Below, in pieces: positions 46,620 through 55,728 of a stretch of DNA of 64,000 nucleotides. This DNA comes from a virus (lineage: Duplodnaviria > Heunggongvirae > Uroviricota > Caudoviricetes). A model generated the notes under the pieces. That model did not search any database and was not told the origin of the DNA. It saw only the letters and a program-made list of their open reading frames with translations. How positions within the stretch are numbered: the first letter of the stretch is position 1; each line of letters opens with the position of its first letter. Both the position numbers and the translations under genes were made by a program. The DNA lies in the IMG/VR virus record IMGVR_UViG_3300021407_000008; one strand, given 5' to 3'.

Positions 46620-46702
46620 TGGTGCCGCTGGGGAGATTTGAACTCCCATGCCCGAAGGCGCTGCATTCTAAATGCAGTATGTATGCGTTCCATCACAGCG
46701 GC
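46620..46702 (-). tRNA. tRNA-Leu(TAG), class II
   Basis: 7-bp acceptor GCCGCTG/CAGCGGC. Anticodon loop TTTAGAA. Long variable arm, T-loop TTCAAAT, CCA encoded. Confidence 0.55.
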
Positions 46703-46704
46703 AT

Positions 46705-46787
46705 TGGTGCCAATGGAGAGACTTGCACTCTCACGCCTTGCGGCAACGGGGCTTAAATCCGTCGCGTATTCATTCCGCCACATTGGC
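46705..46787 (-). tRNA. tRNA-Leu(TAA), class II
   Basis: Acceptor GCCAATG/CATTGGC. Anticodon loop TTTAAGC. GNRA variable arm. CCA encoded. Confidence 0.55.
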
Positions 46788-46793
46788 AAAACT

Positions 46794-46884
46794 TGGTGGG
46801 TGCGGATCGAATTGAACGACCGAGGCTCACATGGAAGCCACTGGTTTACAGCCAGTCCGAGATTCCCAACATCTCAACGCACCC
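46794..46884 (-). tRNA. tRNA-Tyr(GTA), class II
   Basis: Acceptor GGGTGCG/CGCACCC. Anticodon loop CTGTAAA. Long variable hairpin. CCA encoded. Confidence 0.5.
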
Positions 46885-46889
46885 AAAAA

Positions 46890-46978
46890 TGGCAGAGGGT
46901 GGAGCATCGAAGCCCTAGCCCATCCCTGAGCTACCCACGGGTTCAAACCGCGTCGCCAGCCACTCTAGCGGCACCCTC
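46890..46978 (-). tRNA. Class II tRNA, possibly Ser(TGA); fold partly unresolved
   Basis: Acceptor AGAGGGT/ACCCTCT plus CCA. Candidate anticodon loop TTTGAAC. T-arm is ambiguous. Confidence 0.35.
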
Positions 46979-46979
46979 T

Positions 46980-47070
46980 GTGGCGGAGAGAGCGTGTGCT
47001 GACCACGCGTGCCCCATTTCTGGAAGCTCATCTTTAGCAAAGATGCGGTTTTACCGTTCACCCATCTCTC
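46980..47070 (-). tRNA. tRNA-Ser(GCT), class II
   Basis: Acceptor GGAGAGA/TCTCTCC. Anticodon loop TTGCTAA. CCA encoded. Confidence 0.5.
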
Positions 47071-47100
47071 CGTTTTAAAATTGTCAAAGACCTTAAACTT

Positions 47101-47185
47101 TGGTAGGCCAGAACGGACTTGAACCGTTACGCCTCGCGGCAGCGCATTTTGAGTGCGCCGTGTCTGCCATTCCAACCACTGGCCT
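47101..47185 (-). tRNA. tRNA-Leu(CAA), class II
   Basis: Acceptor AGGCCAG/CTGGCCT. Anticodon loop CTCAAAA. GNRA variable arm. T-arm ACGG-TTCAAGT-CCGT. Confidence 0.55.
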
Positions 47186-47271
47186 AAATTTTTACAGGGA
47201 TAAATAATACGAGCGCAGCGCGTATAGGCTGCTACTGAGTCGCAATGAGAGTGATAGAGTCATTGAAGTTT

Positions 47272-47347
47272 TGGGAGCAAGCCTTGGAGTCGAACCAAGT
47301 ATCCTTGCGTTATGAGCGCAAGATGAATTCCGTTTCACCCTCTTGCT
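47272..47347 (-). tRNA. tRNA-Met(CAT) (or Ile2/fMet)
   Basis: T-arm CTTGG-TTCGACT-CCAAG. Anticodon loop CTCATAA. CCA encoded. Confidence 0.5.
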
Positions 47348-47354
47348 TTGATGA

Positions 47355-47543
47355 TTAGAGCACGGGCACTGAAGTTGTGTCAAGTTTTTTAGCAATAAAA
47401 CCTCTCTTGGCTACTAAATATTGTTGCAGTAATTCTCTATAGTGAACTTGGCTTCTGGCGGTTCCGTACTTTTTCTTGCAACCAAGAATATAGCGACGAT
47501 AGGCTAACATTACATGTTCTCGGTTTGGGTGTGGATGGCTCAT
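47355..47543 (-). CDS. Small basic protein
   Basis: 62-aa ORF between tRNA genes. Confidence 0.3.
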   Translation of the reverse strand: MSHPHPNREHVMLAYRRYILGCKKKYGTARSQVHYRELLQQYLVAKRGFIAKKLDTTSVPVL

Positions 47544-47708
47544 TAGTATTTGGCGGTTGGCGGCTTATTCCACGCTCTTGTGGGCGGTACCGCTGCCCGA
47601 ATTACCGGCTGCAACTAGTGGTCGATCTACCGGTAGGGTCATCCCGTTTTGTTCCCTTTAACGACCCATGCCACTATCGGTGAAACCCGCCGCCAAGAAG
47701 ATTAGATT

Positions 47709-47886
47709 ACTCTGGCCACTCTCGCGGTGCAAGTTCTATGTTGGATTGTTCTAGCCATTGGGCATATGGTAACGGTTCTTTTACGGTGCGACAATAACGC
47801 TTGTAGCGTCCAATGGCAATACGTTCTCGCAGAACTACCTTGCCTAGCTTCTTGCGCCATTCTTGCTGAATTGGACGTGCTCTCAT
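47709..47886 (-). CDS. Small basic protein (about 59 aa)
   Basis: Manual translation gives MRARPIQQEWRKKLGKVVLRERIAIGRYKRYCRTVKEP... Confidence 0.25.
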
Positions 47887-47907
47887 AAAGTTAAACGGGA
47901 TAGCTTT

Positions 47908-47975
47908 CTGGCATACGCGGAATCGAACCGCGAACTCGGGTATCTCCGAATGTTGCCATTAACACTATGCGCCCT
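47908..47975 (-). pseudogene. tRNA-like element, possibly a degenerate tRNA
   Basis: Canonical T-arm CGCGG-TTCGATT-CCGCG, but the acceptor is imperfect and the anticodon loop has 6 nt. Confidence 0.3.
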
Positions 47976-48014
47976 ACTCGCTATCCCTATCGCGATTCTA
48001 TAGCATCGCGAATA

Positions 48015-48088
48015 CTGGTCCGGGTGGACGGAATTAAACCGTCATCTTCTGATCCCAAATCAGAGGCTCGATCTTCCAGCTACACCCG
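48015..48088 (-). tRNA. tRNA-Pro(GGG)
   Basis: Acceptor CCGGGTG/CACCCGG. Anticodon loop TTTGGGA. T-arm GACGG-TTTAATT-CCGTC. CCA encoded. Confidence 0.5.
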
Positions 48089-48193
48089 GAAACTTTTCTA
48101 ACGGAAACGTCGCGGGCCGAATCCGCGCTTTTGTAAATCCAACTTCATGGCCAGCAAGCATACCGCGTCCGGTTTCTCGTTGTCCGTTAGTAT

Positions 48194-48271
48194 TGGTGAG
48201 CAGTCTCCGAGTCGAACGGAATTCTGGTCGGCTTCAGCGACCCGCTAAATGACCCCACTAGCTCACTGCTC
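48194..48271 (-). tRNA. tRNA-Phe(GAA)
   Basis: Acceptor GAGCAGT/ACTGCTC. Anticodon loop CTGAAGC. T-loop TTCGACT. CCA encoded. Confidence 0.55.
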
Positions 48272-48353
48272 AAATTTGGTGGACCTGGACGGTTATCCTC
48301 CGTCTGCCTCCGCATTGCAAGTGCGGCGCTCTCGTAAGTGAGCTACAGGCCCA

Positions 48354-48433
48354 TGGGGTGGACGGTCGAAGTTGCATCGACAAAAGCACGGTTCCACAGA
48401 CCGGCCCGACATTCTGATAGTCGGCACGTCCAC
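48354..48433 (-). tRNA. tRNA-His(GTG)
   Basis: Acceptor GTGGACG/CGTCCAC with discriminator C. Anticodon loop CTGTGGA. CCA encoded. Confidence 0.45.
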
Positions 48434-48436
48434 AAC

Positions 48437-48508
48437 TGGAGCCGACTGTGCGTGATGATCGCACTCCGCAATGGGTACAAGCCGCTGCGCCCTCCCGAGG
48501 GAGTCGGC
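48437..48508 (-). pseudogene. tRNA-like element with no resolvable anticodon arm
   Basis: Perfect acceptor GCCGACT/AGTCGGC plus CCA. T-arm GTGCG-ATCATCA-CGCAC. The middle region does not fold canonically. Confidence 0.3.
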
Positions 48509-48513
48509 AAAAC

Positions 48514-48588
48514 TGGAGCCGCGAGAATGAATCCAACATTCGTAGGTTGCTTACCGAGCAACTGAACTAAGCACTGTTCTATCGCGGC
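48514..48588 (-). tRNA. tRNA-Thr(GGT)
   Basis: Acceptor GCCGCGA/TCGCGGC. D-stem GAAC/GTTC. Anticodon loop TCGGTAA. CCA encoded. Confidence 0.55.
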
Positions 48589-48590
48589 GG

Positions 48591-48662
48591 AGCCGGTACG
48601 GCGAATTGAGCGCCGATAACGAGTTTACGAATCTCGCATTCTTCCACTTGAATTATACCGGC
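48591..48662 (-). tRNA. tRNA-Thr(CGT) (no CCA encoded)
   Basis: Acceptor GCCGGTA/TACCGGC. D-stem ATTC/GAAT. Anticodon loop TTCGTAA. Confidence 0.45.
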
Positions 48663-48669
48663 CAAAAAC

Positions 48670-48744
48670 TGGAGAGCCGTGAGTGAATTCAACACTCGTA
48701 TAAGGTTTTGCAGACCTCAGCCTAAAGCACTCGGCCAACGGCTC
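48670..48744 (-). tRNA. tRNA-Cys(GCA)
   Basis: Acceptor GAGCCGT/ACGGCTC. Anticodon loop CTGCAAA. CCA encoded. Confidence 0.5.
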
Positions 48745-48748
48745 AATA

Positions 48749-48823
48749 TGGAGCGGTCGGCGGGAATTGCACCCGCGACGTTCTGTCTGGCAGACAGACA
48801 TTCTCGCTGCTGAATTACGACCG
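48749..48823 (-). tRNA. tRNA-Gly(GCC)
   Basis: Acceptor GCGGTCG/CGACCGC. D-stem ATTC/GAAT. Anticodon loop CTGCCAG. CCA encoded. Confidence 0.55.
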
Positions 48824-48993
48824 CAATTCTTCCTGCGCTTGTTTGCGTGTTGCGCCCTCCTTAATTCTGCGCTGAATATATATCTCGCGCATATATTTCA
48901 TTGTTTGCGCATTGTCTATGGAGCGAACATCCGAATCTGCCTCGGAACCAAGAGAGTGGAAATCTCTGATGCTGCTAATTACACCATGCTCGC

Positions 48994-49338
48994 TCATTCG
49001 CAACAAACTCCTTCCCTGTTAGTCGCCGTGCATTCCAAGCAATATTCCACGGCATGTTTTATGCACGGATAACCTTTCCAACCCTCGCGAGCCATATATT
49101 TATCCCAATGGCTTGCTACCCAATAACGCGGGCGAGACAATGAACCACAACGGTCATCCCAGCATTCCTTGCAACGCGCAGAACCAGCACCTTGCTTTGT
49201 TTCCTGGCCGCAATCGATACAGTAAGTGGCGGGAGTGGACGGTAATGATCCGCCTTCGCGAGATTTGGAGGCTCGCCGCTCACCTTTTGCATCTTCACTC
49301 CCGAATACTAACTTTCTTGCGAATTCAAGATACTTAAA
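48994..49338 (-). CDS. Cys-rich zinc-finger small protein
   Basis: CIDCGQETKQGAGSARCKEC...CLECT. Confidence 0.35.
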   Translation of the reverse strand, partial: FKYLEFARKLVFGSEDAKGERRASKSREGGSLPSTPATYCIDCGQETKQGAGSARCKECWDDRCGSLSRPRYWVASHWDKYMAREGWKGYPCIKHAVEYCLECTATNREGVCCE

Positions 49339-49357
49339 CATTGTTTTCCTTTCAAAA

Positions 49358-49434
49358 TGGCGCTCCGTGCGGGAGTCCAACCCGCTGTTTCCGTCGTGAC
49401 AGGACGGCGGCTATAAGCGTTCGCCCAACGGAGC
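49358..49434 (-). tRNA. tRNA-Asp(GTC)
   Basis: Acceptor GCTCCGT/ACGGAGC. Anticodon loop CTGTCAC. T-arm GCGGG-TTGGACT-CCCGC. CCA encoded. Confidence 0.5.
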
Positions 49435-49439
49435 AAACT

Positions 49440-49514
49440 TGGCGAGCGGTGGATGAATCCAACATCCGTTACTGCTTTCAGAGAGCAGCGCCTAAAGCAC
49501 TCGGCCAACCGCCC
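49440..49514 (-). tRNA. tRNA-Gln(CTG)
   Basis: Acceptor GGGCGGT/ACCGCTC (one G-U pair). Anticodon loop CTCTGAA. CCA encoded. Confidence 0.5.
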
Positions 49515-49520
49515 AAAAAC

Positions 49521-49594
49521 TGGAACCCGGTGGATGAGTTGAACATCCATTGCTTGAGTCAAAGTCAAGTGCCTCAGCCGTTCGGCCAACCGGG
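49521..49594 (-). tRNA. tRNA-Gln(TTG)
   Basis: Acceptor GCCCGGT/ACCGGGT. Anticodon loop CTTTGAC. T-loop TTCAACT. CCA encoded. Confidence 0.45.
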
Positions 49595-49777
49595 CTAAAC
49601 CTTCAACGGTATCGCACGCACACATCTCGCGCAGATTACCGAACTTGAATCTATATCCTTTTCTAGCTTGCGCCGCGCTTCGCATGCTTCTTCCACAAGG
49701 GCATAATGGTCGGTTCCCCTAGCACAGTAATCTATCGTGCCATTCAAAACAATCGCGCCAAATAATTCGTGCTTCAT
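49595..49777 (-). CDS. Small Cys-containing protein
   Basis: ORF from the internal start MKHELFGAIVLNG... Confidence 0.25.
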   Translation of the reverse strand: MKHELFGAIVLNGTIDYCARGTDHYALVEEACEARRKLEKDIDSSSVICARCVRAIPLKV

Positions 49778-49784
49778 AAATCCT

Positions 49785-49861
49785 TGGTGGCGGCAGCGAG
49801 AATTGAACTCGCATTCTGTCTGTGAAAGAGACATGTCCTAAATCAATTAGACGATACCGCC
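49785..49861 (-). tRNA. tRNA-Glu(TTC)
   Basis: Acceptor GGCGGTA/TGCCGCC. Anticodon loop CTTTCAC. T-arm GCGAG-TTCAATT-CTCGC. CCA encoded. Confidence 0.5.
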
Positions 49862-50067
49862 CTTAGTTCTGCCATTCTTTTGTCGGATGCAACCTTACTC
49901 CATCCATAGCCGTCCCATATTTGCTTTGGTCTATTTGTGGCTCGGTTTTCGTAATGTTTGCGAGCTTTTTCTTCTGCCACGAAATCACGCGGTATTCCGT
50001 GTCGCGGCGATGATGAAACTAGTCTGTTTCCCATTGCTTGCCTCCTAAAAACGTTTAAGCCCCGCAT
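49843..50067 (-). CDS. Small basic protein
   Basis: 74-aa ORF, partly overlapping the tRNA-Glu 5' end. Confidence 0.25.
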   Translation of the reverse strand: MRGLNVFRRQAMGNRLVSSSPRHGIPRDFVAEEKARKHYENRATNRPKQIWDGYGWSKVASDKRMAELRAVSSN

Positions 50068-50070
50068 TGT

Positions 50071-50098
50071 TTTTCGGGGCTTAGTTGAACTACGTTAA
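50071..50098 (-). terminator. Rho-independent terminator (minus strand)
   Basis: AAGCCCCG-AAAAACAATG-CGGGGCTT followed by a T-run on the minus strand. Confidence 0.45.
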
Positions 50099-50260
50099 AT
50101 GTATTTCCCCGATTGTTTAAGGCGTACCAGTTTCTTGCCACGGTTGTGTGGCTGCTGGGAAACAATCGGCATGGAACAATGTATACATTTGGTTAATGGA
50201 GTAATACTAAACTAATGTTTTACAAAATGCAAGTTTGAATCCAAGCCGAGAGCCAGAGTT

Positions 50261-50593
50261 TCAGGGATATATCCTATTGAAGTACGCGTAGAACTCTTCT
50301 TGCGTCATACCTTTTACCTTATGGCAGTAGTTATAAACGCCCACCAGTTGATGATAACCAATGCCCAAGCCACTATAGGGGCGCACGGCTGGACGCCAGA
50401 AATGCTTGCACCGGAGTTGCTTCCACTTTTGTCCGCTTTCCAGTTCCTTGTCGCTTACGGTCATTTCTCCGTGCCCTCCTTGGGACTGATCTACGGCGCT
50501 GCCACAGTGATAAATAGTGCTATAGATGCTAAGTCGAATACGATTACGACCGGAACCCATAGCGCGTGACCACAGTTGTCCAACCAGTAGCAC
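50261..50593 (-). CDS. Hypothetical protein
   Basis: 110-aa ORF. Confidence 0.3.
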   Translation of the reverse strand: MLLVGQLWSRAMGSGRNRIRLSIYSTIYHCGSAVDQSQGGHGEMTVSDKELESGQKWKQLRCKHFWRPAVRPYSGLGIGYHQLVGVYNYCHKVKGMTQEEFYAYFNRIYP

Positions 50594-50680
50594 ACTCCAC
50601 CTGTCGCGAAGAAACTAAAAAGCCACAGAAGTTTTCCAAACCAACTCAACCAAGTTTTGATCACTGTCCATCCTTGGGCC

Positions 50681-50884
50681 TCAATGATTGCCAGCGTTTC
50701 TCAAGGCTCGTTCAAGATCGGCGATGGATACCGTTATGGAATGTCCTCGCCAGTCGAGAATCGCGAAATAGTTAAATATGCGGTGCGCCTTCACAATCAG
50801 GGCATCCGCCTCGTTAGGCAGTCCTTTGCGCTCGTTGCCGTCGATTTCGTAAGGGTCAAGACTAGTTTCTACAGTCTTAGCCAT
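50681..50884 (-). CDS. Hypothetical small protein
   Basis: 67-aa ORF adjacent to the next gene. Confidence 0.3.
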   Translation of the reverse strand: MAKTVETSLDPYEIDGNERKGLPNEADALIVKAHRIFNYFAILDWRGHSITVSIADLERALRNAGNH

Positions 50885-50885
50885 C

Positions 50886-52040
50886 TTACTTCTCCTTCTT
50901 CCCGGCGTCAGCCCCGAGAGCTTTCGCTGCTTCGATTTCCCATGCGTAGTGCTCCTTCATCCATCTCTCCTTGTTTCGGCCGCAGTTTTGGATGCTGGGA
51001 GCCGATTGGATGAGGACCTTGAGCTTGGCAATCTCGGCCTCTTTCTCCGCGACTCGGGCAGCGGCGTATCGGCGCATGGATTCCTGTGAGACTTTCATTA
51101 TCGTCAAACCGTCAAGCAGTCGGCAGGTTGTGCAGAATAACGATTCGTTGCCTCCAGTTAACTCAGCGGTCACAGCGGATAGCAACTGGCCTTCGGGAGT
51201 ACTGGCTAGTTCACGTTCTTGTCGAGTCAATACTGCATCTTGATTGTCTCGCTCGGGGAGCGATAAGCCGTCTCCAGCTTCGGAGGGATTGACCTCGGGA
51301 AAGGTAGACCGCTCCGGCTCCCCGAACTTTATTAGCGGCTCCGTACCCGCTGACCCGCCAGCATTCGTTTCCGCTCGCTTGTCGTCGAGAAGTTTAGTGC
51401 AGACTTCTACGCACTGGTCGCAGATGTAGGCACGCTCCTTAAAATCGTTGGGTGTAACAATAAGCCAGTTCACCTCGGCCTGTGTTTTGTGACAAAAGTA
51501 GCATATCGGCCCTCCGACTACTTGAGCGTGCTGATGCACGCCGATTTGACTTGATAAAGCCTTTCGTGATGACTGCGGACAGTTCCCACACTGTAAGCCC
51601 TGGAATGGCACACGCCGACCGCAACCGTGGATACAAAACGATTGTCCAGAGGAAGATAACTGCATGGGAGCGGACTGCCGTTCGCTGGGCAAGGCTGCAT
51701 CGGATTCTTTGCTAAATAGGTCGTCACAATTGGGACACTTACCTCGATTATTTTCCCATGATGCCAGATAGTTCTCGCGCTTACATTGAGGACATTTCTT
51801 GAATTCAGGTTCTACTCCGGGACAGTATCGCATCGGTCGGCCTCCAAATGTGTGCGCCGAATGAGGCGCTTCATAACAGCATCGCTCGCCCTGCGCTGGT
51901 GCTGGAAGTTGATGCGCAACCCATCCTCGACATGCAGACGTTTTCTGGTGCAAATATCCGCCCGCATAAGGGTGCCCTTGATCGAACGCTGTTTCACAAA
52001 GTCCGACCTCGCCCTGCGCTGGTGCTTCCTTCTCGCTCAC
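50886..52040 (-). CDS. Multi-zinc-ribbon protein with a ClpX-type C4 zinc finger
   Basis: ICYFCHKTQAEVNWLIVTPNDFKERAYICDQCVEVCTKLL resembles the ClpX N-terminal zinc finger. Several CPxC motifs. GTG start after AAGCG. Confidence 0.4.
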   Translation of the reverse strand: MSEKEAPAQGEVGLCETAFDQGHPYAGGYLHQKTSACRGWVAHQLPAPAQGERCCYEAPHSAHTFGGRPMRYCPGVEPEFKKCPQCKRENYLASWENNRGKCPNCDDLFSKESDAALPSERQSAPMQLSSSGQSFCIHGCGRRVPFQGLQCGNCPQSSRKALSSQIGVHQHAQVVGGPICYFCHKTQAEVNWLIVTPNDFKERAYICDQCVEVCTKLLDDKRAETNAGGSAGTEPLIKFGEPERSTFPEVNPSEAGDGLSLPERDNQDAVLTRQERELASTPEGQLLSAVTAELTGGNESLFCTTCRLLDGLTIMKVSQESMRRYAAARVAEKEAEIAKLKVLIQSAPSIQNCGRNKERWMKEHYAWEIEAAKALGADAGKKEK

Positions 52041-52044
52041 AGAA

Positions 52045-52419
52045 TTACCTCCCGTATGCGGACAATTGGACTACCCAACTGTTCGTGGATTTGTTCCATT
52101 CTTCCGCGACCCATCCAAGTGTGCCTTCTGCCCAGTCTGGGCCAATATCTACACACTTTCCAGCGGCTACCTTGCTCGGCGCAACCGCGTCACCGATCTT
52201 GGCCGTGGTACCTTCAAACGTACATATAGCTAGTACGTTGAGATTAGCTTCCTTGCTGGCCCGAAGCGGTTTGGTGTTCGGTACTGTGTCCGATTGGACA
52301 CCAATAAAGACGCCGAAAAACAGAGCGCCCATACACGTGAATATCCAAGTAAACGGCACCCACGAAGGTAGCTTTGGCTCAGTAGTTTCAGTTTCTATTG
52401 TGGCTTCCTTCTCGCTCAT
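52045..52419 (-). CDS. Membrane protein (paralogous MSEKEA N-terminus)
   Basis: Transmembrane segment FTWIFTCMGALFFGVFIGV. Shared start cassette. Confidence 0.4.
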   Translation of the reverse strand: MSEKEATIETETTEPKLPSWVPFTWIFTCMGALFFGVFIGVQSDTVPNTKPLRASKEANLNVLAICTFEGTTAKIGDAVAPSKVAAGKCVDIGPDWAEGTLGWVAEEWNKSTNSWVVQLSAYGR

Positions 52420-52703
52420 GGCTTCTTAGCTCCTAACTGAAAGTGGTTGCGAATTTCGGATGCCCGACAATGGACGGCCACATCACGTCCCAAATCATGT
52501 AGCCATTTGCCCTCTGGCCGCTGGAATATAGGTTCCCCACCTTCGCAATCCGCACAAAGCACTTTACAGCACTGCTCCGCGATCTCGCGGCCGAAGTCCG
52601 CCACGCGCTGATCCGCCCAGCCAACCTCTCCGCTTTGCTCTCGAAAGTGACCCGCTGCCTGCGCCAGTTTGGCCGGCGGTGCTTCCTTTCTGTCTCCGCT
52701 CAT
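52416..52703 (-). CDS. Cys-containing small protein (MSGDRKEA N-terminus)
   Basis: Shared start cassette. CCKVLCADCEGG. Confidence 0.35.
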   Translation of the reverse strand: MSGDRKEAPPAKLAQAAGHFREQSGEVGWADQRVADFGREIAEQCCKVLCADCEGGEPIFQRPEGKWLHDLGRDVAVHCRASEIRNHFQLGAKKP

Positions 52704-52886
52704 CGCTTCGGCTTCTCCAATCTGAAATGCTTAGGGCATAGATGGACGATTACCTTGTCAGGAACCTTCAGAATCGTTCCTTGTTGAGTTGTCAAAGCGC
52801 AGGATGTCAACTGAGCCGTTGCCTTACATTGTTGACCATCCCACGCACCGCATCTAAACCTTGGCTTCCTGTCTCCGCTCACAAGT
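52700..52886 (-). CDS. Small protein (VSGDRKPR N-terminus, GTG start)
   Basis: Shared start cassette GTGAGCGGAGACAGGAAG. Confidence 0.3.
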
Positions 52887-53115
52887 CCTCCGTCGCCTTC
52901 TTGGCTCCGAGAATCCGCTTCATCTCCGCCGCGATGCAACGCTTGGCAAGACCGTCAAATGGCCTGCCCAGAAACATCTCAACTGCCTCGACCGTAACAT
53001 GGATGGCACGCTCAATCGTTCCCTTTGGATGGATGATCATTGCGCCATTCTTGCAAAAGTGCTCGGCAATTGATCGGAACGGTGATTCCTCTTTCGTCTC
53101 AGCCCCCGCACTCAT
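52879..53115 (-). CDS. Small protein (MSAGAETKEE N-terminus)
   Basis: Shared AAGCG-ATGAG start context. Confidence 0.35.
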   Translation of the reverse strand: MSAGAETKEESPFRSIAEHFCKNGAMIIHPKGTIERAIHVTVEAVEMFLGRPFDGLAKRCIAAEMKRILGAKKATEDL

Positions 53116-53171
53116 CGCTTCTGTCCTCTCTGATTAAGAGATTATATAGCACGGGAAAAGATTCAAGAAAA

Positions 53172-53247
53172 TGGTGCCAGCACCGAGAATCCAACTCGGA
53201 TTTGCTCTTTAGGGGAGAGCCGTGTTCGTGCGTTACACTATGCCAGC
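53172..53247 (-). tRNA. Possible tRNA-Arg(CCT) (acceptor has two G-U pairs)
   Basis: T-arm CCGAG-TTGGATT-CTCGG plus CCA. Anticodon arm GCTCT-CCCCTAA-AGAGC. Confidence 0.35.
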
Positions 53248-53555
53248 AAAATCGGCCATCAGGAGAAACCGCAAACCTTCGCCAGCTACTTCGTCCTTCT
53301 GTGTTGGGTCACTCGAAACGATTAAGCTTAATCTATCCCAACCTTCTGCCCGCGCTTTCCACGGGATTAGGAGCGTTTCCTTCCAGACTTTTTGCCAACT
53401 TCGGTTGTTCCACTAGAACCATTACTGGACTGCATCTAACTTCGCAACCGCGACTCTAGATCGACTTTTCGGCTTCGGTCCAAGCGAACAGCCCAAGCAA
53501 GTCGTCCAACTTGTGCGTCAGTTTTTTCGTGGCCAAAATAAATATAGCATGAAAA

Positions 53556-53631
53556 TGGTAGGGCCATGAGGACTTGAACCCCAATCGCTCGTTCCGTAGA
53601 CGAGTGCCTTAATCCGGTTAGACGATGGCCC
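53556..53631 (-). tRNA. tRNA-Arg(ACG)
   Basis: Acceptor GGGCCAT/ATGGCCC. Anticodon loop CTACGGA. T-arm TGGGG-TTCAAGT-CCTCA. CCA encoded. Confidence 0.5.
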
Positions 53632-53634
53632 CGT

Positions 53635-53709
53635 TGGGACTCGCTGGCAGGCTCGAACTGCCGTTCCACGGGTAGAAGCCGTGATCCTTTCCTGTTGGAC
53701 GAAGCGAGC
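53635..53709 (-). tRNA. tRNA-Arg(TCT)
   Basis: Acceptor GCTCGCT/AGCGAGT. Anticodon loop CTTCTAC. T-arm GGCAG-TTCGAGC-CTGCC. CCA encoded. Confidence 0.5.
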
Positions 53710-53716
53710 ATAAAAT

Positions 53717-53792
53717 TGGTCGGGGCCAAGGGATTCCCACCCTTATCGGCTCGCTTAAAAGGCGAGGGTACTCAGTGTTGTACTAGACCCCG
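53717..53792 (-). tRNA. tRNA-Lys(TTT)
   Basis: D-stem GTAC/GTAC. Anticodon loop CTTTTAA. CCA encoded. Confidence 0.55.
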
Positions 53793-53793
53793 T

Positions 53794-53872
53794 TGGTGGG
53801 TGCGGCCCGAGTCGAACGGGCATGATCCAAATTAAGAGTTTGGAGCGCTTTCCATTACTCCGCCACGCACCC
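53794..53872 (-). tRNA. tRNA-Lys(CTT)
   Basis: Acceptor GGGTGCG/CGCACCC. Anticodon loop CTCTTAA. T-arm GCCCG-TTCGACT-CGGGC. CCA encoded. Confidence 0.45.
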
Positions 53873-53873
53873 A

Positions 53874-53947
53874 TGGTTCTCCGAGAAAGAGTCGAACTTT
53901 CGTAACGTGCTTATCAGACACGCGAACTACCGTTGTTCTATCGGAGA
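53874..53947 (-). tRNA. tRNA-Ile(GAT)
   Basis: Acceptor TCTCCGA/TCGGAGA. D-stem GAAC/GTTC. Anticodon loop CTGATAA. CCA encoded. Confidence 0.55.
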
Positions 53948-53953
53948 AAAATC

Positions 53954-54027
53954 TGGTACCGGATGATTGAGTCGAACAATCGTAAGTGGTGTGTAGGACC
54001 ACGGCTTTACCCTTAAGCTAATCCGGC
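53954..54027 (-). tRNA. tRNA-Val(TAC)
   Basis: D-stem GCTT/AAGC. Anticodon loop CCTACAC. T-arm GATTG-TTCGACT-CAATC. CCA encoded. Confidence 0.55.
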
Positions 54028-54029
54028 GC

Positions 54030-54104
54030 TGGTGGGCGATGGACGAATCGAACGTCCGACCAGAAGTTTATAAGACTTCCCATCTGCCACTGATGTAATC
54101 GCCC
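54030..54104 (-). tRNA. tRNA-Ile(TAT) (AUA-reading)
   Basis: Acceptor GGGCGAT/ATCGCCC. D-stem CATC/GATG. Anticodon loop CTTATAA. CCA encoded. Confidence 0.5.
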
Positions 54105-54111
54105 TAAAAAT

Positions 54112-54185
54112 TGGTCGCTCATTTCCGAGTCGAACGGAAGTAGGTGGGATATGAAGCCACTGCACTGCCCTTGTGCTAATGAGCG
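54112..54185 (-). tRNA. tRNA-Met(CAT) (second copy; possible initiator or Ile2)
   Basis: Acceptor CGCTCAT/ATGAGCG. D-stem GCAC/GTGC. Anticodon loop TTCATAT. CCA encoded. Confidence 0.45.
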
Positions 54186-54187
54186 GG

Positions 54188-54262
54188 CTGGCCGAGTAGG
54201 AATCGAACCTACGCATGGCGAAATTAACAGTTTCGTGCCTTACCAACTTGGCTACCGGCCAA
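54188..54262 (-). tRNA. tRNA-Asn(GTT) (no CCA encoded)
   Basis: Anticodon arm CGAAA-CTGTTAA-TTTCG. T-arm GTAGG-TTCGATT-CCTAC. Confidence 0.45.
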
Positions 54263-54275
54263 TCTCTCCGCCAAA

Positions 54276-54298
54276 CAAAAATGCCAGCGATTTTATTT
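54276..54298 (-). terminator. Rho-independent terminator upstream of the tRNA array (minus strand)
   Basis: GCCAGCGA-AAATAAAA-TCGCTGGC followed by a T-run on the minus strand. Confidence 0.45.
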
Positions 54299-54707
54299 TC
54301 GCTGGCATCTCTGGAAAGGAGGAGGTATGAAGTGAACTTATTCCAGACGCACGCCAGCGATTCGCATAATGCGATTTCGTCTTATGGCGCCGCGTTTGGT
54401 AATGAAGCTCATTGGTGAAATACTACAGCAGCACAAGTGGAATTGCAAGTTTTTATTTATCCCAAAGACGCCGCACAGTAACTCACGGATTGATTGGTTG
54501 GCTGCGACGTTGTGTAGACCATTCCGTAAGCGTTACCAGAAGCAACGAGTTTGTTCTGTTGATACTCCCAAAACGGATTAGTTTGCACGTTAGAACCGCC
54601 AGCGTTTGCGGCGCGGATAAATGCACCAAGCTGGGTTAGCGATACATCATCTAATTTGGCATTGATTGTCCCTTGTTTCGCCCGCTCCTGCTTCTCGGCT
54701 GGAGGGG

Positions 54708-54993: not shown

Positions 54994-55728
54994 TTAGAGA
55001 AGTTTTATATCGGCTTCAAGCGTGGCTAGATCAATTCCGCTAGGGGTTTTCTGTGTAGCTTGGTTAAACCAGTCTTGGGTGATAATAACGAATTCTTCGT
55101 CTATGTATTGGGCGCTCCAAGCGGCAGACGCTTTTTGGTCCCATTTGGCCCACGTAACGTAATCATCGCCCAACGAACCATATCCGGGATGCAAGATTGC
55201 ATGGCCACCATCGATGCCGGTAGGTACAACTTCCCAAGATTCGCTATTCGCGAATTGCGATTGGGCGCTGGCTGGTAACTGAACACCAACAAGCGTGGCA
55301 CCAAATAAATCAACACCCAATTGGCGATGAACTAAATTCGTATGGTCAATCTTGGCCCAAGCCAGAATCTTGTGGCCAGCCATTCCGGTGTTGTGTAGGT
55401 AGTCTAGCGCGTCCGTGATGGCTGTTCCGTTATCGTTGGCTCCCGTGACAGGATTGAAGCCAGTAACCGCGCTGTATGCGCCAAGAACGTCTTGCGGTGT
55501 GGGAATAACTACGGTGCCAGTGTGGCAAGTTGCAAGTATTAAAGCATTAGCCGCCATGGCCCAAACGCAACAACCGTATTGATCGTTGCCGTACATAAGT
55601 TTTGCATTGTCTGGGGTGGCGTACTCGCGATAAACCTTAGTAGCAGGAGACGGCAACTCTCCAGTGAGATATTTGCTCAACTGGAGAGTGCGCGGGTGAG
55701 ACTTTGGGGCTAGTTTGCCAAGTTTCAA
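54994..55728 (-). CDS. Papain-like (C1 family) cysteine peptidase
   Basis: QYGCCVWAMA matches the Gln...Cys-Trp-Ala active-site block. GGHAILHPGYG matches the His block. DDYVTWAKW follows. Confidence 0.5.
   Translation of the reverse strand: MKLGKLAPKSHPRTLQLSKYLTGELPSPATKVYREYATPDNAKLMYGNDQYGCCVWAMAANALILATCHTGTVVIPTPQDVLGAYSAVTGFNPVTGANDNGTAITDALDYLHNTGMAGHKILAWAKIDHTNLVHRQLGVDLFGATLVGVQLPASAQSQFANSESWEVVPTGIDGGHAILHPGYGSLGDDYVTWAKWDQKASAAWSAQYIDEEFVIITQDWFNQATQKTPSGIDLATLEADIKLL

What the first reader, a model, noticed from the sequence alone, without database searches (positions are those of the whole stretch)
46620..54262. Two large tRNA arrays (about 29 genes) with non-canonical architecture, including a block of class II tRNAs only
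Manual folding finds the following tRNA genes:
- Array 1 class II block at 46620-47185: Leu(TAG), Leu(TAA), Tyr(GTA), Ser(TGA?), Ser(GCT), Leu(CAA).
- Array 1 remainder: Met, Pro, Phe, His, Thr x2, Cys, Gly, Asp, Gln x2, Glu.
- Array 2: Arg x3, Lys x2, Ile(GAT), Val, Ile(TAT), Met, Asn.

Many have 3-bp D-stems with GAAYGNNTA-type D-loops lacking GG, 4-nt variable loops, and divergent T-loops (TTGGATT, TGCAATT, TTGAATT). Compensatory changes in the T-stems (GAATG/CATTC, GAGTG/CACTC, GGATG/CATCC) argue that these are functional.

An AUA-decoding tRNA-Ile(TAT) and two CAT tRNAs are present. Several copies look degenerate (47908-47975, 48437-48508). Small ORFs are interleaved with the tRNA genes.
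Basis: seen in the sequence. Interest (0 to 1): 0.6.

Follow-up and report, generated by a model that had tools for sequence, protein, structure and literature searches.

The report
Phage tRNA cluster with rewired tRNAs
A roughly 100-kb soil phage carries 31 tRNA genes covering all 20 amino acids, and nearly half have unusual but internally consistent folds, which makes this a structurally odd variant of the familiar phage tRNA cluster.

Summary
All genes lie on the minus strand.

Detection:
- A relaxed threshold adds Ser(UGA), His and a compact Thr(UGU).
- Homology plus covariation adds Trp(CCA) at 49227-49302.
- The total is 31 genes for all 20 amino acids, and 29 encode CCA.

Context: the window is part of a 103-kb metagenomic phage contig. 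Two related ~100-kb phages keep almost the same anticodon order, although most positional counterparts are no more alike than unrelated tRNAs.

The non-canonical features are real. Twelve D-loops lack GG and 15 T-loops are not TTCRA, but the tertiary partners co-vary:
- 19:56 changes from G:C to C:G or A:U.
- 18:55 changes from G:U to A:G.
- 54:58 changes from U:A to A:U.

So the L-shape is kept. In T5, 24 of 25 tRNAs are canonical.

Ser(UGA) is an 8/4 tRNA, a type already described in phages.

The "degenerate" 48437-48508 is a compact tRNA that is 97% identical in a relative. Element 47907-47989 is probably a relic.

I read this as a functional, near-autonomous decoding set. It is a new variant of a known kind.

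Side findings are a tRNA nested in an ORF, an unclassified ~300-nt RNA, and a Ro60/Y-RNA module.

The parts
54185..54262 (-). tRNA-Asn(GUU). Its 3' end is GCC and abuts the next tRNA, so the final A of CCA is not encoded.
   Evidence: ARAGORN; Rfam 59.6 bits; flanks
54112..54185 (-). tRNA with CAU anticodon (Met or Ile2, undecided). 1:72 is C-G and there is a 31:39 C.C mismatch.
   Evidence: ARAGORN; Rfam 47.0 bits
54030..54104 (-). tRNA-Ile(UAU), which decodes AUA.
   Evidence: ARAGORN; Rfam 62.3 bits; AUA is 20% of the phage's Ile codons
53954..54027 (-). tRNA-Val(UAC)
   Evidence: ARAGORN; Rfam 55.6 bits
53874..53947 (-). tRNA-Ile(GAU)
   Evidence: ARAGORN; Rfam 62.4 bits
53794..53872 (-). 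tRNA-Lys(CUU)
   Evidence: ARAGORN; Rfam 49.9 bits
53717..53792 (-). tRNA-Lys(UUU) with a rewired elbow: D-loop AACACTGA (A18 C19) and T-loop TGGGAAT (G55 G56). It is 100% identical in relative L035.
   Evidence: ARAGORN; Rfam 47.6 bits; MFE cloverleaf
53635..53709 (-). tRNA-Arg(UCU)
   Evidence: ARAGORN; Rfam 38.6 bits
53556..53632 (-). tRNA-Arg(ACG)
   Evidence: ARAGORN; Rfam 47.7 bits
53248..53555 (-). Conserved ORF-free structured RNA candidate of about 300 nt, embedded in the array, belonging to no known family.
   Evidence: 84% column identity across 3 phages, stop codons in all frames, 13 of 78 predicted pairs compensatory; no Rfam match
53172..53247 (-). tRNA-Arg(CCU) with a C19:G56 elbow (D-loop AACGCACGA, T-loop TTGGATT).
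   Evidence: ARAGORN; not found by Rfam
50261..53115 (-). Lineage-specific block of small, mostly Cys-rich ORFs that splits the cluster in two. One ORF carries a ClpX-type zinc finger.
   Evidence: ORFs; Pfam zf-C4_ClpX; no homologues in L035 or L039; no PHROG
49785..49861 (-). tRNA-Glu(UUC)
   Evidence: ARAGORN; Rfam 57.9 bits
49595..49777 (-). Conserved 60-aa ORF (MKHELF...) packed between Glu and Gln(UUG). Its ribosome-binding site directly follows the Glu CCA, and its stop codon overlaps the first base of the next tRNA.
   Evidence: 79-81% aa identity in L035 and L039; sequence
49521..49595 (-). tRNA-Gln(UUG)
   Evidence: ARAGORN; Rfam 55.6 bits
49440..49514 (-). tRNA-Gln(CUG) with a C19:G56 elbow. 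It is 75% identical to the window's Cys(GCA), so it looks like a paralogue with a shifted anticodon.
   Evidence: ARAGORN; Rfam 51.3 bits
49358..49434 (-). tRNA-Asp(GUC) with a C19:G56 elbow.
   Evidence: ARAGORN; Rfam 46.9 bits
49227..49302 (-). tRNA-Trp(CCA), missed by every predictor. It has T-loop ATCATTA (A54:U58), a 31:39 mismatch and an offset 3-bp D-stem, and it lies inside an ORF.
   Evidence: Homology to Trp of L035 and L039; 12 of 20 pairs compensatory, 0 broken; coordinates; MFE cloverleaf
48994..49341 (-). Conserved 115-aa Cys-rich ORF whose 5' part contains the whole tRNA-Trp gene in frame.
   Evidence: 73% and 50% aa identity in L035 and L039. Substitutions by codon position are 7/7/30 after the tRNA and 7/9/8 within it. 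The same ORFs are called in public data.
48914..48989 (-). Possible decayed Gly(UCC), at the position where L035 and L039 carry Gly(UCC).
   Evidence: ARAGORN only at -ps80; positional correspondence
48749..48824 (-). tRNA-Gly(GCC), T-loop TGCAATT (G55) with AG in the D-loop.
   Evidence: ARAGORN; Rfam 57.9 bits
48670..48744 (-). tRNA-Cys(GCA) with a C19:G56 elbow.
   Evidence: ARAGORN; Rfam 51.4 bits
48589..48662 (-). tRNA-Thr(CGU). Its 3' end is UCC and abuts the next tRNA. It is 93% identical in L039.
   Evidence: ARAGORN; Rfam 48.6 bits
48514..48588 (-). tRNA-Thr(GGU) with a C19:G56 elbow.
   Evidence: ARAGORN; Rfam 51.1 bits
48437..48508 (-). Compact 72-nt tRNA-Thr(UGU). It has no 8/9 connector, a 4-bp D-stem with a 4-nt loop, an 8-layer anticodon stem, a 2-nt variable region and T-loop AUCAUCA.
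   Evidence: ARAGORN -ps90; MFE fold; 96-97% identical in L035 while its neighbours are unalignable
48354..48433 (-). tRNA-His(GUG) with C73. G-1 is not encoded (the -1 base is T). The D-loop is 11 nt and the T-loop is TGCAACT.
   Evidence: ARAGORN -ps90; MFE cloverleaf; flanks
48277..48352 (-). tRNA-Ala(UGC) with G3:U70 and T-loop AGGATAA (A54:U58).
   Evidence: ARAGORN; Rfam 46.0 bits
48194..48271 (-). tRNA-Phe(GAA)
   Evidence: ARAGORN; not found by Rfam
48016..48089 (-). tRNA-Pro(UGG) with an A19:U56 elbow (T-loop TTTAATT).
   Evidence: ARAGORN; Rfam 52.4 bits
47907..47989 (-). tRNA-like relic, probably a pseudogene. It has a 6-nt anticodon loop and no CCA, and is closed by an outer stem GGGAUAGC/GCUAUCCC.
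   Evidence: Only ARAGORN at -ps85 or lower; folds; Rfam matches only the T-arm; not conserved in L035
47272..47347 (-). Second CAU tRNA, with discriminator C73 in all three phages. Its identity is undecided.
   Evidence: ARAGORN; MFE cloverleaf
47101..47185 (-). tRNA-Leu(CAA), the first gene of the class II block. It is 99% identical in L035.
   Evidence: ARAGORN; Rfam 42.5 bits
46981..47071 (-). tRNA-Ser(GCU)
   Evidence: ARAGORN; not found by Rfam
46890..46979 (-). 8/4 tRNA-Ser(UGA). It has an 8-bp acceptor stem, a 6-bp D-stem, a long variable arm, a 4-bp T-stem with a 6-nt loop, G73 and an encoded CCA.
   Evidence: ARAGORN -ps90; folds; covariation in 3 and 4 orthologues, where pair 8:79 is G-C twice and A-U twice
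46794..46884 (-). tRNA-Tyr(GUA)
   Evidence: ARAGORN; not found by Rfam
46705..46787 (-). tRNA-Leu(UAA), T-loop TGCAAGT. It is 83-90% identical among the three phages.
   Evidence: ARAGORN; Rfam 45.8 bits
46620..46702 (-). tRNA-Leu(UAG), the last gene of the cluster.
   Evidence: ARAGORN; Rfam 52.0 bits

Best explanation
This is one ancestral phage tRNA gene cluster. It holds 31 genes for all 20 amino acids and is split in two by about 3.3 kb of lineage-specific ORFs. It lies on the same strand as every phage gene of a roughly 103-kb tailed phage.

Shown here
- The genes are real tRNA genes that keep cloverleaf pairing, amino-acid identity marks and the L-shape-forming tertiary pairs.
- They keep these features even though about half depart from the universal G18-G19 / T54-Psi55-C56 motifs.
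- One is an 8/4 tRNA-Ser and one is a compact tRNA-Thr.
- Spacers are 0-9 nt, and CCA is encoded in 29 of 31.

Inferred
- The cluster is transcribed as a few polycistronic precursors together with the interleaved small ORFs and a roughly 300-nt RNA.
- The precursors are cut by host RNase P and 3'-end nucleases, and the tRNAs are charged by host synthetases.
- The set supplies a nearly self-sufficient decoding capacity. It has one U34 tRNA per four-codon box plus the split-box tRNAs, and reads about 89% of phage codons under standard wobble.
- This keeps phage translation running whatever the state of the host tRNA pool, whether the problem is codon mismatch, host shut-off or cleavage by tRNA-targeting defence nucleases.
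- The rewritten elbows and the rapid replacement of individual genes at fixed positions are most simply read as diversification of the tRNA body under that pressure. The flat 19:56 pair, which RNase P and the ribosome stack on, is preserved throughout.
For: Detection
- 27 ARAGORN and 22 Rfam predictions are confined to 7.6 kb of one strand.
- Three more appear at a relaxed threshold with no extra hits outside the arrays.
- Trp is supported by covariation, with 12 of 20 pairs compensatory and none broken.

Phage context
- Portal, large terminase, primase/helicase and RecT are present.
- The source is a 103,165-bp contig.

Synteny
- 29 of the 31 anticodons appear in the same order in L039, and 27 of 31 in L035.
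- A fourth contig repeats the class II block.

Constraint on structure
- 307 of 635 predicted pairs in positional orthologues have compensatory changes.
- Discriminator bases are conserved per isoacceptor: Gly, Cys and Thr have U73, His has C73, and Asp, Ser, Trp and Asn have G73.
- G3:U70 is conserved in Ala of all three phages.

Elbow covariation
- All 19 tRNAs with N56 other than C carry a purine followed by the complement of N56 in the D-loop. Random pairing of loops gives a mean of 13.3, and 8 of 10,000 permutations reach 19.
- 31 of 33 non-UC T-loops have the matching 18-19 dinucleotide, against 0 of 10,000 permutations.
- A54 always occurs with U58, in 6 of 6 cases.

Strong conservation of odd tRNAs
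- Lys(UUU) is 100%, Leu(CAA) 99% and compact Thr(UGU) 97% identical between the window and L035. They sit within DNA that is otherwise 66-78% identical or unalignable.

Codon coverage
- The set reads 89% of 12,604 phage codons. AUA, CUA, UUA and AGA are each 16-20% of their families.

Precedents
- T5 has the same layout.
- Phage tRNAs rescue infection from PARIS, a retron and anticodon nucleases (PMC11464382, PMC11555353, PMC10264068).
Against: - There is no expression, processing, charging or modification data.
- The host is unknown, so codon compensation cannot be measured.
- The promoter and terminator scan is not enriched over shuffles.
- Five ARAGORN genes and all four extra genes are invisible to the Rfam model.
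- His lacks an encoded G-1 in two of the three phages, although C73 is kept.
- GGA, GGG and CGG have no reader in this phage.
- No initiator-type CAU tRNA could be recognised.
- Published evasion of nucleases by phage tRNAs maps to the anticodon stem-loop, not the elbow (PMC10264068, PMC11464382). A defence-driven reading of the elbow changes is therefore conjecture.
- The 18:55 rule (A18 with G55) was derived from these same data.
Confidence: 0.85

Rival explanations
1. The function is pure codon compensation. The tRNAs exist only to supply codons that the roughly 49% GC3 phage uses often and a higher-GC host reads poorly. The odd structures are neutral drift tolerated during a short infection.
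For: - The set is biased to U34 anticodons that read A-ending codons.
- AUA, CUA, UUA and AGA are each 16-20% of their codon families in the phage.
- This is the classical explanation (Bailly-Bechet et al. 2007, cited in PMC11924767).
Against: - The set covers all 20 amino acids, including codons no host lacks such as Trp, Met, Asp and Phe.
- Tertiary pairs co-vary rather than decay.
- Some of the oddest tRNAs are the most conserved sequences in the region. That is the opposite of drift.
- The host is unknown, so the key comparison is missing.
Confidence: 0.3
2. Much of the cluster is decaying. Only the canonical-looking half is functional, and the non-canonical genes are pseudogenes or tRNA-like debris.
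For: - Nine of the 31 genes are not seen by the Rfam tRNA model.
- One clear relic lies at 47907-47989 and a possible Gly(UCC) relic at 48914-48989.
- His lacks G-1.
- T5 is annotated with a pseudo-tRNA and tRNA-like RNAs.
Against: - The non-canonical genes keep all stems.
- Their D-loop and T-loop partners co-vary.
- They keep isoacceptor-specific discriminators.
- They are the only genes for Lys(UUU), Cys, Asp, Trp, His, Ala and Ser(UCN) in the set.
- They include the most conserved genes of the cluster.
Confidence: 0.1
3. The cluster is not primarily translational. The tRNAs would act as decoys or sponges for host tRNA-binding nucleases or enzymes, as processing punctuation for the interleaved mRNAs, or as recombination hot spots.
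For: - ORFs are packed flush against tRNA ends, and one ORF contains a tRNA.
- The array holds a non-tRNA structured RNA.
- The phage also encodes Ro60 and Y RNAs.
Against: - A complete, non-redundant anticodon set with conserved identity elements and an encoded CCA is what decoding requires, and decoys do not need it.
- A punctuation role can coexist with decoding.
Confidence: 0.05

Closest known systems
tRNA gene region of coliphage T5 (Demerecviridae) and similar arrays of T4-like, KVP40-like and jumbo phages
   Same: - Two dozen or more co-oriented tRNA genes cover nearly all amino acids.
- Spacers are short and CCA is encoded.
- Small ORFs, promoters and stable or tRNA-like RNAs of unknown function are interleaved, and a pseudo-tRNA is present.
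- The proposed roles are codon supply and escape from tRNA-cleaving defences (PMC11464382, PMC11555353, PMC10264068).
   Different: - There is no sequence relationship.
- In T5, 24 of 25 tRNAs keep GG and TTCRA. Here 12 of 31 lack GG and 15 of 31 lack TTCRA.
- All class II tRNAs form one block.
- One tRNA sits inside an ORF.
8/4 tRNA-Ser and allo-tRNAs (Mukai et al. 2017, Nucleic Acids Res 45:2776, PMC5389517)
   Same: Ser(UGA) has an 8-bp acceptor stem, a 4-bp T-stem, a long D-stem with a short loop, a long variable arm, G73 or U73 and a serine anticodon. That paper reports 8/4 tRNA-Ser in phage tRNA clusters and irregular tRNA polycistrons in acidobacterial soil sequences.
   Different: - The D-loop is 5 nt rather than a tetraloop, and the T-loop is 6 nt in two of the four orthologues.
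- The 8/4 tRNA-His that accompanies it in alpha-proteobacterial phages is not present. His here is 7/5 with C73.
Compact tRNAs such as tRNA-Pyl and mitochondrial type I tRNA-Ser(UCN) (review PMC7609411)
   Same: Thr(UGU) at 48437-48508 has a reduced acceptor/D connector, a very small D-loop, an elongated anticodon stem, a 2-nt variable region and no G18G19 or T-Psi-C motif.
   Different: - It carries a threonine anticodon and the G1-C72, C2-G71 and U73 shared by the other Thr genes of the cluster.
- It is more extreme, with no connector and an 8-layer anticodon stem.
- It is phage-encoded. Relative L039 has a normal cloverleaf at the same position.
Bacterial and phage Ro60 (Rsr) with YrlA-type Y RNAs (Chen et al. 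2014, PMC4201824)
   Same: The phage encodes a TROVE + vWA Ro60 homologue. A YrlA-like RNA with tRNA-like T and D arms lies directly upstream on the same strand.
   Different: - This module lies 12 kb from the arrays and is not part of them.
- The Rfam score of 35.6 bits is below the gathering score of 69.
- The tRNA-like relic inside the array (47907-47989) does not match YrlA.

Membership tests
Phage-encoded tRNA gene cluster (T5 type) | Located in a phage genome | tested here: met
   Portal, large terminase, primase/helicase and RecT are present. The source is a 103-kb contig, and the relatives are ~100-kb IMG/VR viral contigs.
Phage-encoded tRNA gene cluster (T5 type) | Many co-oriented tRNA genes with short spacers, recognised by independent predictors | tested here: met
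   27 by ARAGORN; 22 by Rfam at or above the gathering score; spacers mostly 0-9 nt.
Phage-encoded tRNA gene cluster (T5 type) | Interleaved small ORFs and non-tRNA or tRNA-like RNAs | tested here: met
   Conserved small ORFs, a ~300-nt RNA candidate and a tRNA-like relic. The T5 annotation shows the same layout.
Phage-encoded tRNA gene cluster (T5 type) | The tRNAs are expressed, processed, charged and used | not testable with these tools
   Only indirect evidence is available: covariation and identity elements.
Canonical bacterial tRNA (Rfam RF00005 consensus) | G18-G19 in the D-loop and T54-Psi55-C56-R57-A58 in the T-loop | tested here: not met
   12 of 31 lack GG and 15 of 31 lack TTCRA. 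The partners co-vary instead.
Canonical bacterial tRNA (Rfam RF00005 consensus) | 7-bp acceptor stem plus 5-bp T-stem, a two-nucleotide 8/9 connector and a 5-bp anticodon stem | tested here: not met
   Met by most genes. Not met by Ser(UGA), which is 8/4, by compact Thr(UGU), or by Trp, which has a 4-nt connector.
8/4 tRNA-Ser / allo-tRNA (Mukai et al. 2017) | 12-bp acceptor branch made of an 8-bp acceptor stem and a 4-bp T-stem | tested here: met
   Consensus fold of 3 orthologues. In 4 orthologues the eighth pair is G-C twice and A-U twice, never broken.
8/4 tRNA-Ser / allo-tRNA (Mukai et al. 2017) | Long variable arm, G73 or U73 discriminator, and a long D-stem with a very short loop | tested here: met
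   6-bp variable arm, G73 (U73 in L035 and L039), and a 6-bp D-stem with a 5-nt loop. The loop is one nucleotide longer than the published tetraloop.
8/4 tRNA-Ser / allo-tRNA (Mukai et al. 2017) | Serylation by SerRS and use in translation | not testable with these tools
   -
tRNA-Sec (considered for 46890-46979) | UCA anticodon and a 13-bp acceptor branch (8/5 or 9/4) | tested here: not met
   The anticodon is UGA in loop UUUGAAC, and the branch is 8 + 4 = 12 bp.
YrlA-type Y RNA (considered for the tRNA-like element 47907-47989) | Within about 4 kb of the Ro60 gene on the same strand, and matching the YrlA model | tested here: not met
   The element is 13.5 kb from Ro60 (32981-34387) and has no YrlA match even with lax filters. 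A separate YrlA-like RNA sits next to Ro60.
Suppressor or recoding tRNA set | Anticodons complementary to stop codons | tested here: not met
   None of the 31 anticodons is CUA, UUA or UCA.

The most novel reading that the evidence does not exclude
This phage lineage keeps a fixed "slot order" of about 30 tRNA specificities but continually replaces or rewrites the tRNA bodies. It swaps the elbow pairs (C19:G56, A19:U56, A18:G55, A54:U58) and adopts 8/4 and compact folds. The resulting tRNAs still fit RNase P, synthetases and the ribosome but no longer look like host tRNAs to host tRNA-directed nucleases or T-loop-reading enzymes. That would be an arms-race signature extending beyond the anticodon loop. 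In addition, the tRNA-Trp nested in a conserved ORF would act as a processing-versus-translation switch.
Probability: 0.2. Interest if true: 0.8.

Novelty: new variant of a known kind. Interest (0 to 1): 0.5.

Why it matters
Large phage tRNA clusters are well known, and their purpose is under active debate between codon supply and escape from tRNA-cleaving immunity.

This cluster is a natural experiment in how far a tRNA body can be rewritten while still working in a bacterial cell:
- About half of the genes have exchanged the near-universal elbow nucleotides for covarying alternatives.
- One is an 8/4 tRNA and one is a compact tRNA.
- Some of the strangest are the most conserved.

If they are shown to be active, they give ready-made test substrates. 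These would show which host enzymes and defence nucleases read the elbow by base identity rather than by shape. They would also be candidate scaffolds for orthogonal tRNAs.

If they are inactive, the cluster is simply another phage tRNA array from an uncultured soil phage.

Tried and rejected
1. **Nucleotide search against cultured phages.** There was no near match. The distant mode found only isolated Leu-tRNA similarities of 77-79%.

2. **Closest cultured phage by large terminase.** The best hit is Tunturiibacter phage Tunturi_3 at 25.5% identity. It has 3 tRNAs and is a podovirus. This is too distant for host inference.

3. **Gene 54994-55728 as a probe for relatives.** It hit nine viral contigs with 29-69% identity, but none shares any neighbour or has an array. 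This gene moves independently.

4. **Other probes that found nothing useful.**
   - The 50886-52040 and 43068-44078 proteins found no relatives.
   - The D-arm pattern TTGGCCGAGTGCTTTAGGC found nothing.
   - The Lys(UUU) T-arm pattern in metagenomes only re-found the L035 phage.

5. **The idea that 47907-47989 is the phage's Y RNA.** Rejected, because a YrlA-like RNA sits next to Ro60 instead and the element matches nothing.

6. **The GC-rich stretch 47545-47710.** It is not a convincing structured RNA: the z-score is -1.06, there is no Rfam hit, and it is not conserved.

7. **The ~300-nt RNA.** It has no Rfam family. A motif scan of 185,579 genomes gave six chance hits only.

8. **Promoters.** The consensus scan is not enriched. 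Promoter-like sites seen by eye are therefore reported only as impressions.

9. **tRNA-Sec and suppressor readings.** Both were rejected on the anticodons.

10. **tRNA-processing or tRNA-modifying enzymes.** None was found among 30 larger ORFs scanned. No family was found for ten small ORFs.

11. **Deciding which CAU tRNA is the initiator.** Neither has C1xA72 or the GGG/CCC anticodon stem.

Full report

ARAGORN on the whole 64-kb window reports 27 tRNA genes. All lie between 46620 and 54262, all on the minus strand, and there are none elsewhere.

The Rfam tRNA covariance model scores 18 above its gathering score on the whole window. It scores 22 when the 9-kb region is searched alone. The five ARAGORN genes it misses are Tyr, Ser(GCU), the CAU gene at 47272, Phe and Arg(CCU).

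Lowering the ARAGORN threshold to 90% adds exactly three genes. Each fills an otherwise empty slot between neighbours:
- Ser(UGA) at 46891-46980
- His(GUG) at 48354-48433
- Thr(UGU) at 48437-48508

Lower thresholds add only antisense images of real genes and scattered noise.

A 31st gene, Trp(CCA) at 49227-49302, escaped every predictor. I found it by homology to the Trp genes of two related phages. In the three-way alignment, 12 of 20 pairs show compensatory changes and none is broken.

The set therefore covers all 20 amino acids.

Everything else in the list is right.

**2. Context**

The window is phage DNA. It has a portal protein, a large terminase, a 2129-aa tape-measure-sized ORF, a primase/helicase, RecT and a PD-(D/E)XK nuclease, all on the minus strand. 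It comes from a 103,165-bp metagenome contig, ENA ERZ27253762.

No cultured phage is close:
- There is no nucleotide match.
- The best large-terminase match is an Acidobacteriota podovirus at 25.5% identity.

Three IMG/VR contigs of 100-103 kb have terminases 65-79% identical. From two of them I recovered the homologous region, as loci L015/L035/L038 and L039.

**3. Comparative anatomy**

The relatives carry 28 (29 with a manually found Ser(UGA)) and 32 tRNA genes. Their anticodon order is almost the same as in the window:

Asn, CAU, Ile(UAU), Val, Ile(GAU), Lys, Lys, Arg x3-4, [gap], Glu, Gln, Gln, Asp, Trp, Gly, Cys, Thr x2-3, His, Ala, Phe, Pro, CAU, then Leu(CAA), Ser(GCU), Ser(UGA), Tyr, Leu(UAA), Leu(UAG).

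Of the 31 window anticodons, 29 recur in order in L039 and 27 in L035. A fourth, short contig repeats the six-gene class II block in the same order.

The gap between the "two arrays" is 3.3 kb here, 3.0 kb in L035 and only 557 nt in L039. The ORFs that fill it in the window have no homologues in the relatives. It is therefore one ancestral cluster split by cargo.

All six class II tRNAs being contiguous would have a chance of about 3.5e-5 in a random order (my own arithmetic). Together with the grouping of Arg, Thr, Gln, Lys and Ile/Val genes, this suggests growth by local duplication.

**4. Are the genes functional?**

Four lines of sequence evidence say yes.

(a) *Stems.* Over the positional orthologues, 307 of 635 consensus pairs carry compensatory double changes.

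(b) *Identity marks.* The discriminator base is constant per isoacceptor in all three phages:
- U73 for Gly, Cys and all Thr
- C73 for His
- G73 for Asp, Ser, Trp, Asn and Gln(CUG)
- A73 for Ala, Leu, Tyr, Val, Ile, Lys and Phe

Ala keeps G3:U70 while the rest of its acceptor stem varies. These are the marks bacterial synthetases use, which is established knowledge reviewed in PMC9976931.

(c) *3' ends and spacing.* CCA is encoded in 29 of 31 genes. The two exceptions, Asn and Thr(CGU), abut the next gene. Spacers are mostly 0-9 nt and U-rich.

(d) *Tertiary pairs.* See section 5.

**5. The non-canonical architecture**

In the window, 12 of 31 D-loops lack GG and 15 of 31 T-loops are not TTCRA. 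The changes are not random.

*The 19:56 pair.* Among 87 distinct tRNAs of the three phages, all 19 with N56 other than C have a purine followed by the Watson-Crick complement of N56 in the D-loop. Examples are GC with G56, GA with U56 and AC with G55-G56. Random pairing of loops gives a mean of 13.3, and only 8 of 10,000 permutations reach 19. GG is present in 4 of these 19, against 60 of the 68 with C56.

*The 18:55 pair.* Adding the empirical rule that G55 goes with A18, 31 of 33 non-canonical T-loops have the matching dinucleotide, and 0 of 10,000 permutations reach this. This second rule was derived from the same data.

*The 54:58 pair.* The reverse-Hoogsteen pair also co-varies. A54 always occurs with U58, in 6 of 6 cases.

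The elbow that makes the L-shape is thus preserved with different bases.

For comparison, T5 has 24 of 25 tRNAs canonical. Its single exception, Ile(GAU) with GA and TTTAAAT, obeys the same rule. The frequency of rewired elbows here, about 45%, is therefore unusual for a phage array, as far as this one control shows.

**6. Special cases**

*Ser(UGA), 46890-46979, is an 8/4 tRNA.* It has an 8-bp acceptor stem, a one-base connector, a 6-bp D-stem with a 5-nt loop, a long variable arm, a 4-bp T-stem, G73 and CCA. In four orthologues the eighth acceptor pair is G-C twice and A-U twice. This is the 8/4 tRNA-Ser that Mukai et al. described in phage tRNA clusters (PMC5389517). It is not tRNA-Sec, because the anticodon is UGA and the acceptor branch is 12 bp.

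*Thr(UGU), 48437-48508, is a compact 72-nt tRNA.* It has no 8/9 connector, a mini D-arm, an 8-layer anticodon stem with one C.A mismatch, a 2-nt variable region and T-loop AUCAUCA. This recalls tRNA-Pyl and mitochondrial type I tRNAs (PMC7609411). It is 96-97% identical in L035, while its neighbours there cannot be aligned. It is therefore under strong constraint and is not degenerate. L039 has an ordinary cloverleaf at that slot.

*His* keeps C73, but the -1 base is T here, C in L035 and G in L039. How it would be charged is open.

*47907-47989* has a 6-nt anticodon loop and no CCA. Its fold is no better than shuffles, and it has no counterpart in L035. It is probably a relic.

*48914-48989* may be a decayed Gly(UCC).

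Neither CAU tRNA looks like an initiator.

**7. Evolutionary pattern**

Unrelated tRNA pairs in these arrays are 52.8 +/- 4.0% identical. Most positional orthologues are 41-64% identical, which is at or near that background. Flanking ORFs are 57-82% identical in protein, and aligned coding DNA is 66-78% identical.

A few genes stand out as far more conserved:
- Lys(UUU), which has the elbow A18-C19 / G55-G56, is 100% identical between the window and L035.
- Leu(CAA) is 99% and compact Thr(UGU) 97% identical between the window and L035.
- Thr(CGU) is 93% identical between the window and L039.
- Leu(UAA) is 83-90% identical in all pairs.

In the window, Gln(CUG) is 75% identical to Cys(GCA), which is 5.6 sd above background, and shares its D-arm. 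L035 and L039 share a different, canonical Gln(CUG) that is 97% identical between them. This points to slot-wise replacement, including anticodon shifts of paralogues, on top of strong purifying selection on particular genes.

**8. What it does**

Phage codon usage is even, with GC3 of 0.49. AUA, CUA, UUA and AGA each make up 16-20% of their families.

The anticodon set is essentially one U34 tRNA per four-codon box plus the split-box tRNAs. It reads 89% of 12,604 codons under standard wobble. Without superwobble, eight codons have no reader: CCC, CGG, CUC, GCC, GGA, GGG, GUC and UCC.

*Shown:* a complete, non-redundant and structurally constrained decoding set.

*Inferred:*
- co-transcription with the interleaved ORFs
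- processing by host RNase P and 3' nucleases
- charging by host synthetases
- use to keep phage translation independent of the host tRNA pool

The published precedents are T5 tRNA-Lys against PARIS, T5 tRNA-Tyr against a retron effector, and anticodon-loop variants against anticodon nucleases (PMC11464382, PMC11555353, PMC10264068).

Those cases involve the anticodon stem-loop. A defensive meaning for the elbow changes is therefore my conjecture. A preserved flat 19:56 pair fits the known stacking recognition of the elbow by RNase P and the ribosome, which is established knowledge. Changed base identities would be expected to abolish T-loop modification by TruB and TrmA.

The consensus promoter and terminator scan is not enriched over shuffles.

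**9. Things found on the way**

(a) *A tRNA inside an ORF.* tRNA-Trp lies inside a conserved 115-aa ORF on the same strand, 48994-49341.
- In all three phages a start codon lies 13-20 codons upstream, and the frame stays open through the tRNA.
- No in-frame start exists between the tRNA and the conserved Cys-rich part.
- Substitutions by codon position are 7/7/30 after the tRNA and 7/9/8 within it.
- Processing of the tRNA and translation of this ORF should exclude each other on one transcript.

(b) *An unclassified RNA.* A roughly 300-nt ORF-free element between Arg(ACG) and Arg(CCU), at 53248-53555, has 84% column identity in three phages. It has 13 compensatory pairs and no Rfam family. A motif scan of representative genomes gave only chance hits.

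(c) *A Ro60/Y-RNA module.* The phage encodes a Ro60 homologue at 32981-34387 (TROVE + vWA). A YrlA-like RNA precedes it at 34425-34534 (35.6 bits, E = 7e-5, below the gathering score). Two further hairpin modules share the same terminal stem.

**10. Verdict**

The finding is real and its interpretation is essentially right. The closest known system is the T5-type phage tRNA cluster. The 8/4 tRNA-Ser is a published type.

What has not been described, as far as my literature searches show, is the combination seen here:
- a near-complete set in a ~100-kb phage with almost half the elbows rewritten by covariation
- a strongly conserved compact tRNA
- slot-conserved but sequence-replaced genes
- a tRNA nested in an ORF

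I rate this a new variant of a known kind, of moderate interest.

Noticed in passing
window 48994-49341 (-), containing tRNA-Trp 49227-49302: A conserved 115-aa Cys-rich ORF reads in frame straight through the whole tRNA-Trp gene in all three related phages. There is no alternative start codon downstream. Substitutions show a coding pattern after the tRNA (7/7/30) and an RNA-type pattern inside it (7/9/8). tRNA processing and translation of this ORF should be mutually exclusive.
   Followed up: partly
window 53248-53555 (-): A roughly 300-nt ORF-free element between Arg(ACG) and Arg(CCU) is better conserved than the flanking tRNAs, at 84% column identity in 3 phages. It has 13 compensatory pairs, an extended -10-like TGCTATATT at its 5' end and a GGCCAC/GTGGCC closing stem. 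It has no Rfam family and was not found elsewhere.
   Followed up: partly
window 32981-34387 (-) and 34408-34716 (-): A Ro60/Rsr homologue (TROVE + Ro60 vWA) is preceded by a YrlA-like Y RNA at 34425-34534 (Rfam 35.6 bits, E = 7e-5, below the gathering score). Two more hairpin modules share the same GUGGCGU(U)AG ... CUUGUUCCC terminal stem, so there may be three Y RNAs.
   Followed up: partly
window 49595-49777 (-): A 60-aa ORF (79-81% identical in relatives) is packed flush between two tRNAs. Its ribosome-binding site directly follows the CCA of Glu, and its stop codon overlaps the first base of Gln(UUG). This suggests tRNA-punctuated mRNA release.
   Followed up: partly
window 48433/48434; L035 and L039 His genes: tRNA-His keeps C73 in all three phages, but the genome-encoded -1 base is T, C and G respectively. 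Two of the three therefore lack the G-1 that bacterial HisRS normally needs.
   Followed up: partly
window 49440-49514 vs 48670-48744: Gln(CUG) is 75% identical to Cys(GCA) of the same phage and shares its D-arm TTGGCCGAGTGCTTTAGGC. The relatives carry an unrelated canonical Gln(CUG) in that slot. This looks like replacement by a paralogue with a shifted anticodon.
   Followed up: partly
window 50261-53115 (-): The block of small ORFs between the arrays has no homologues in the relatives. Four consecutive ORFs start with overlapping stop/start ATGA or GTGA followed by near-identical GAGCG(G)AGA..GGAAGC (repeats D2 and D3). Several are Cys-rich, and one (50886-52040) has a ClpX-type zinc finger.
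   Followed up: partly
window 54994-55728 (-): The 244-aa gene just upstream of the cluster has homologues (29-69% identity) in nine otherwise unrelated viral contigs that share no neighbouring genes. It appears to move independently.
   Followed up: partly
window 54275-54306 (-): A strong hairpin followed by a T-run (GCCAGCGA-AAATAAAA-TCGCTGGC-ATTTTTGTTT), seen by eye, lies about 20 nt upstream of the first tRNA, Asn. It was not reported by the terminator scan. How array transcription starts or reads through here is unclear.
   Followed up: no
window 59694-60263 (-) and 30369-30833 (-): HNH endonuclease genes are present in the phage: HNH_3 with a sub-threshold AP2 match at 59694-60263, and a 154-aa HNH_3 product matching the 154-aa ORF at 30369-30833. 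None is inside the tRNA cluster, unlike in T5.
   Followed up: no
window 47545-47710 (-): A GC-rich stretch bounded by GGCGGCGG ... CCGCCAACCGCCA looks like a structured RNA by eye. Its fold is no better than shuffles (z = -1.06), it has no Rfam hit, and it is not conserved in L035.
   Followed up: yes
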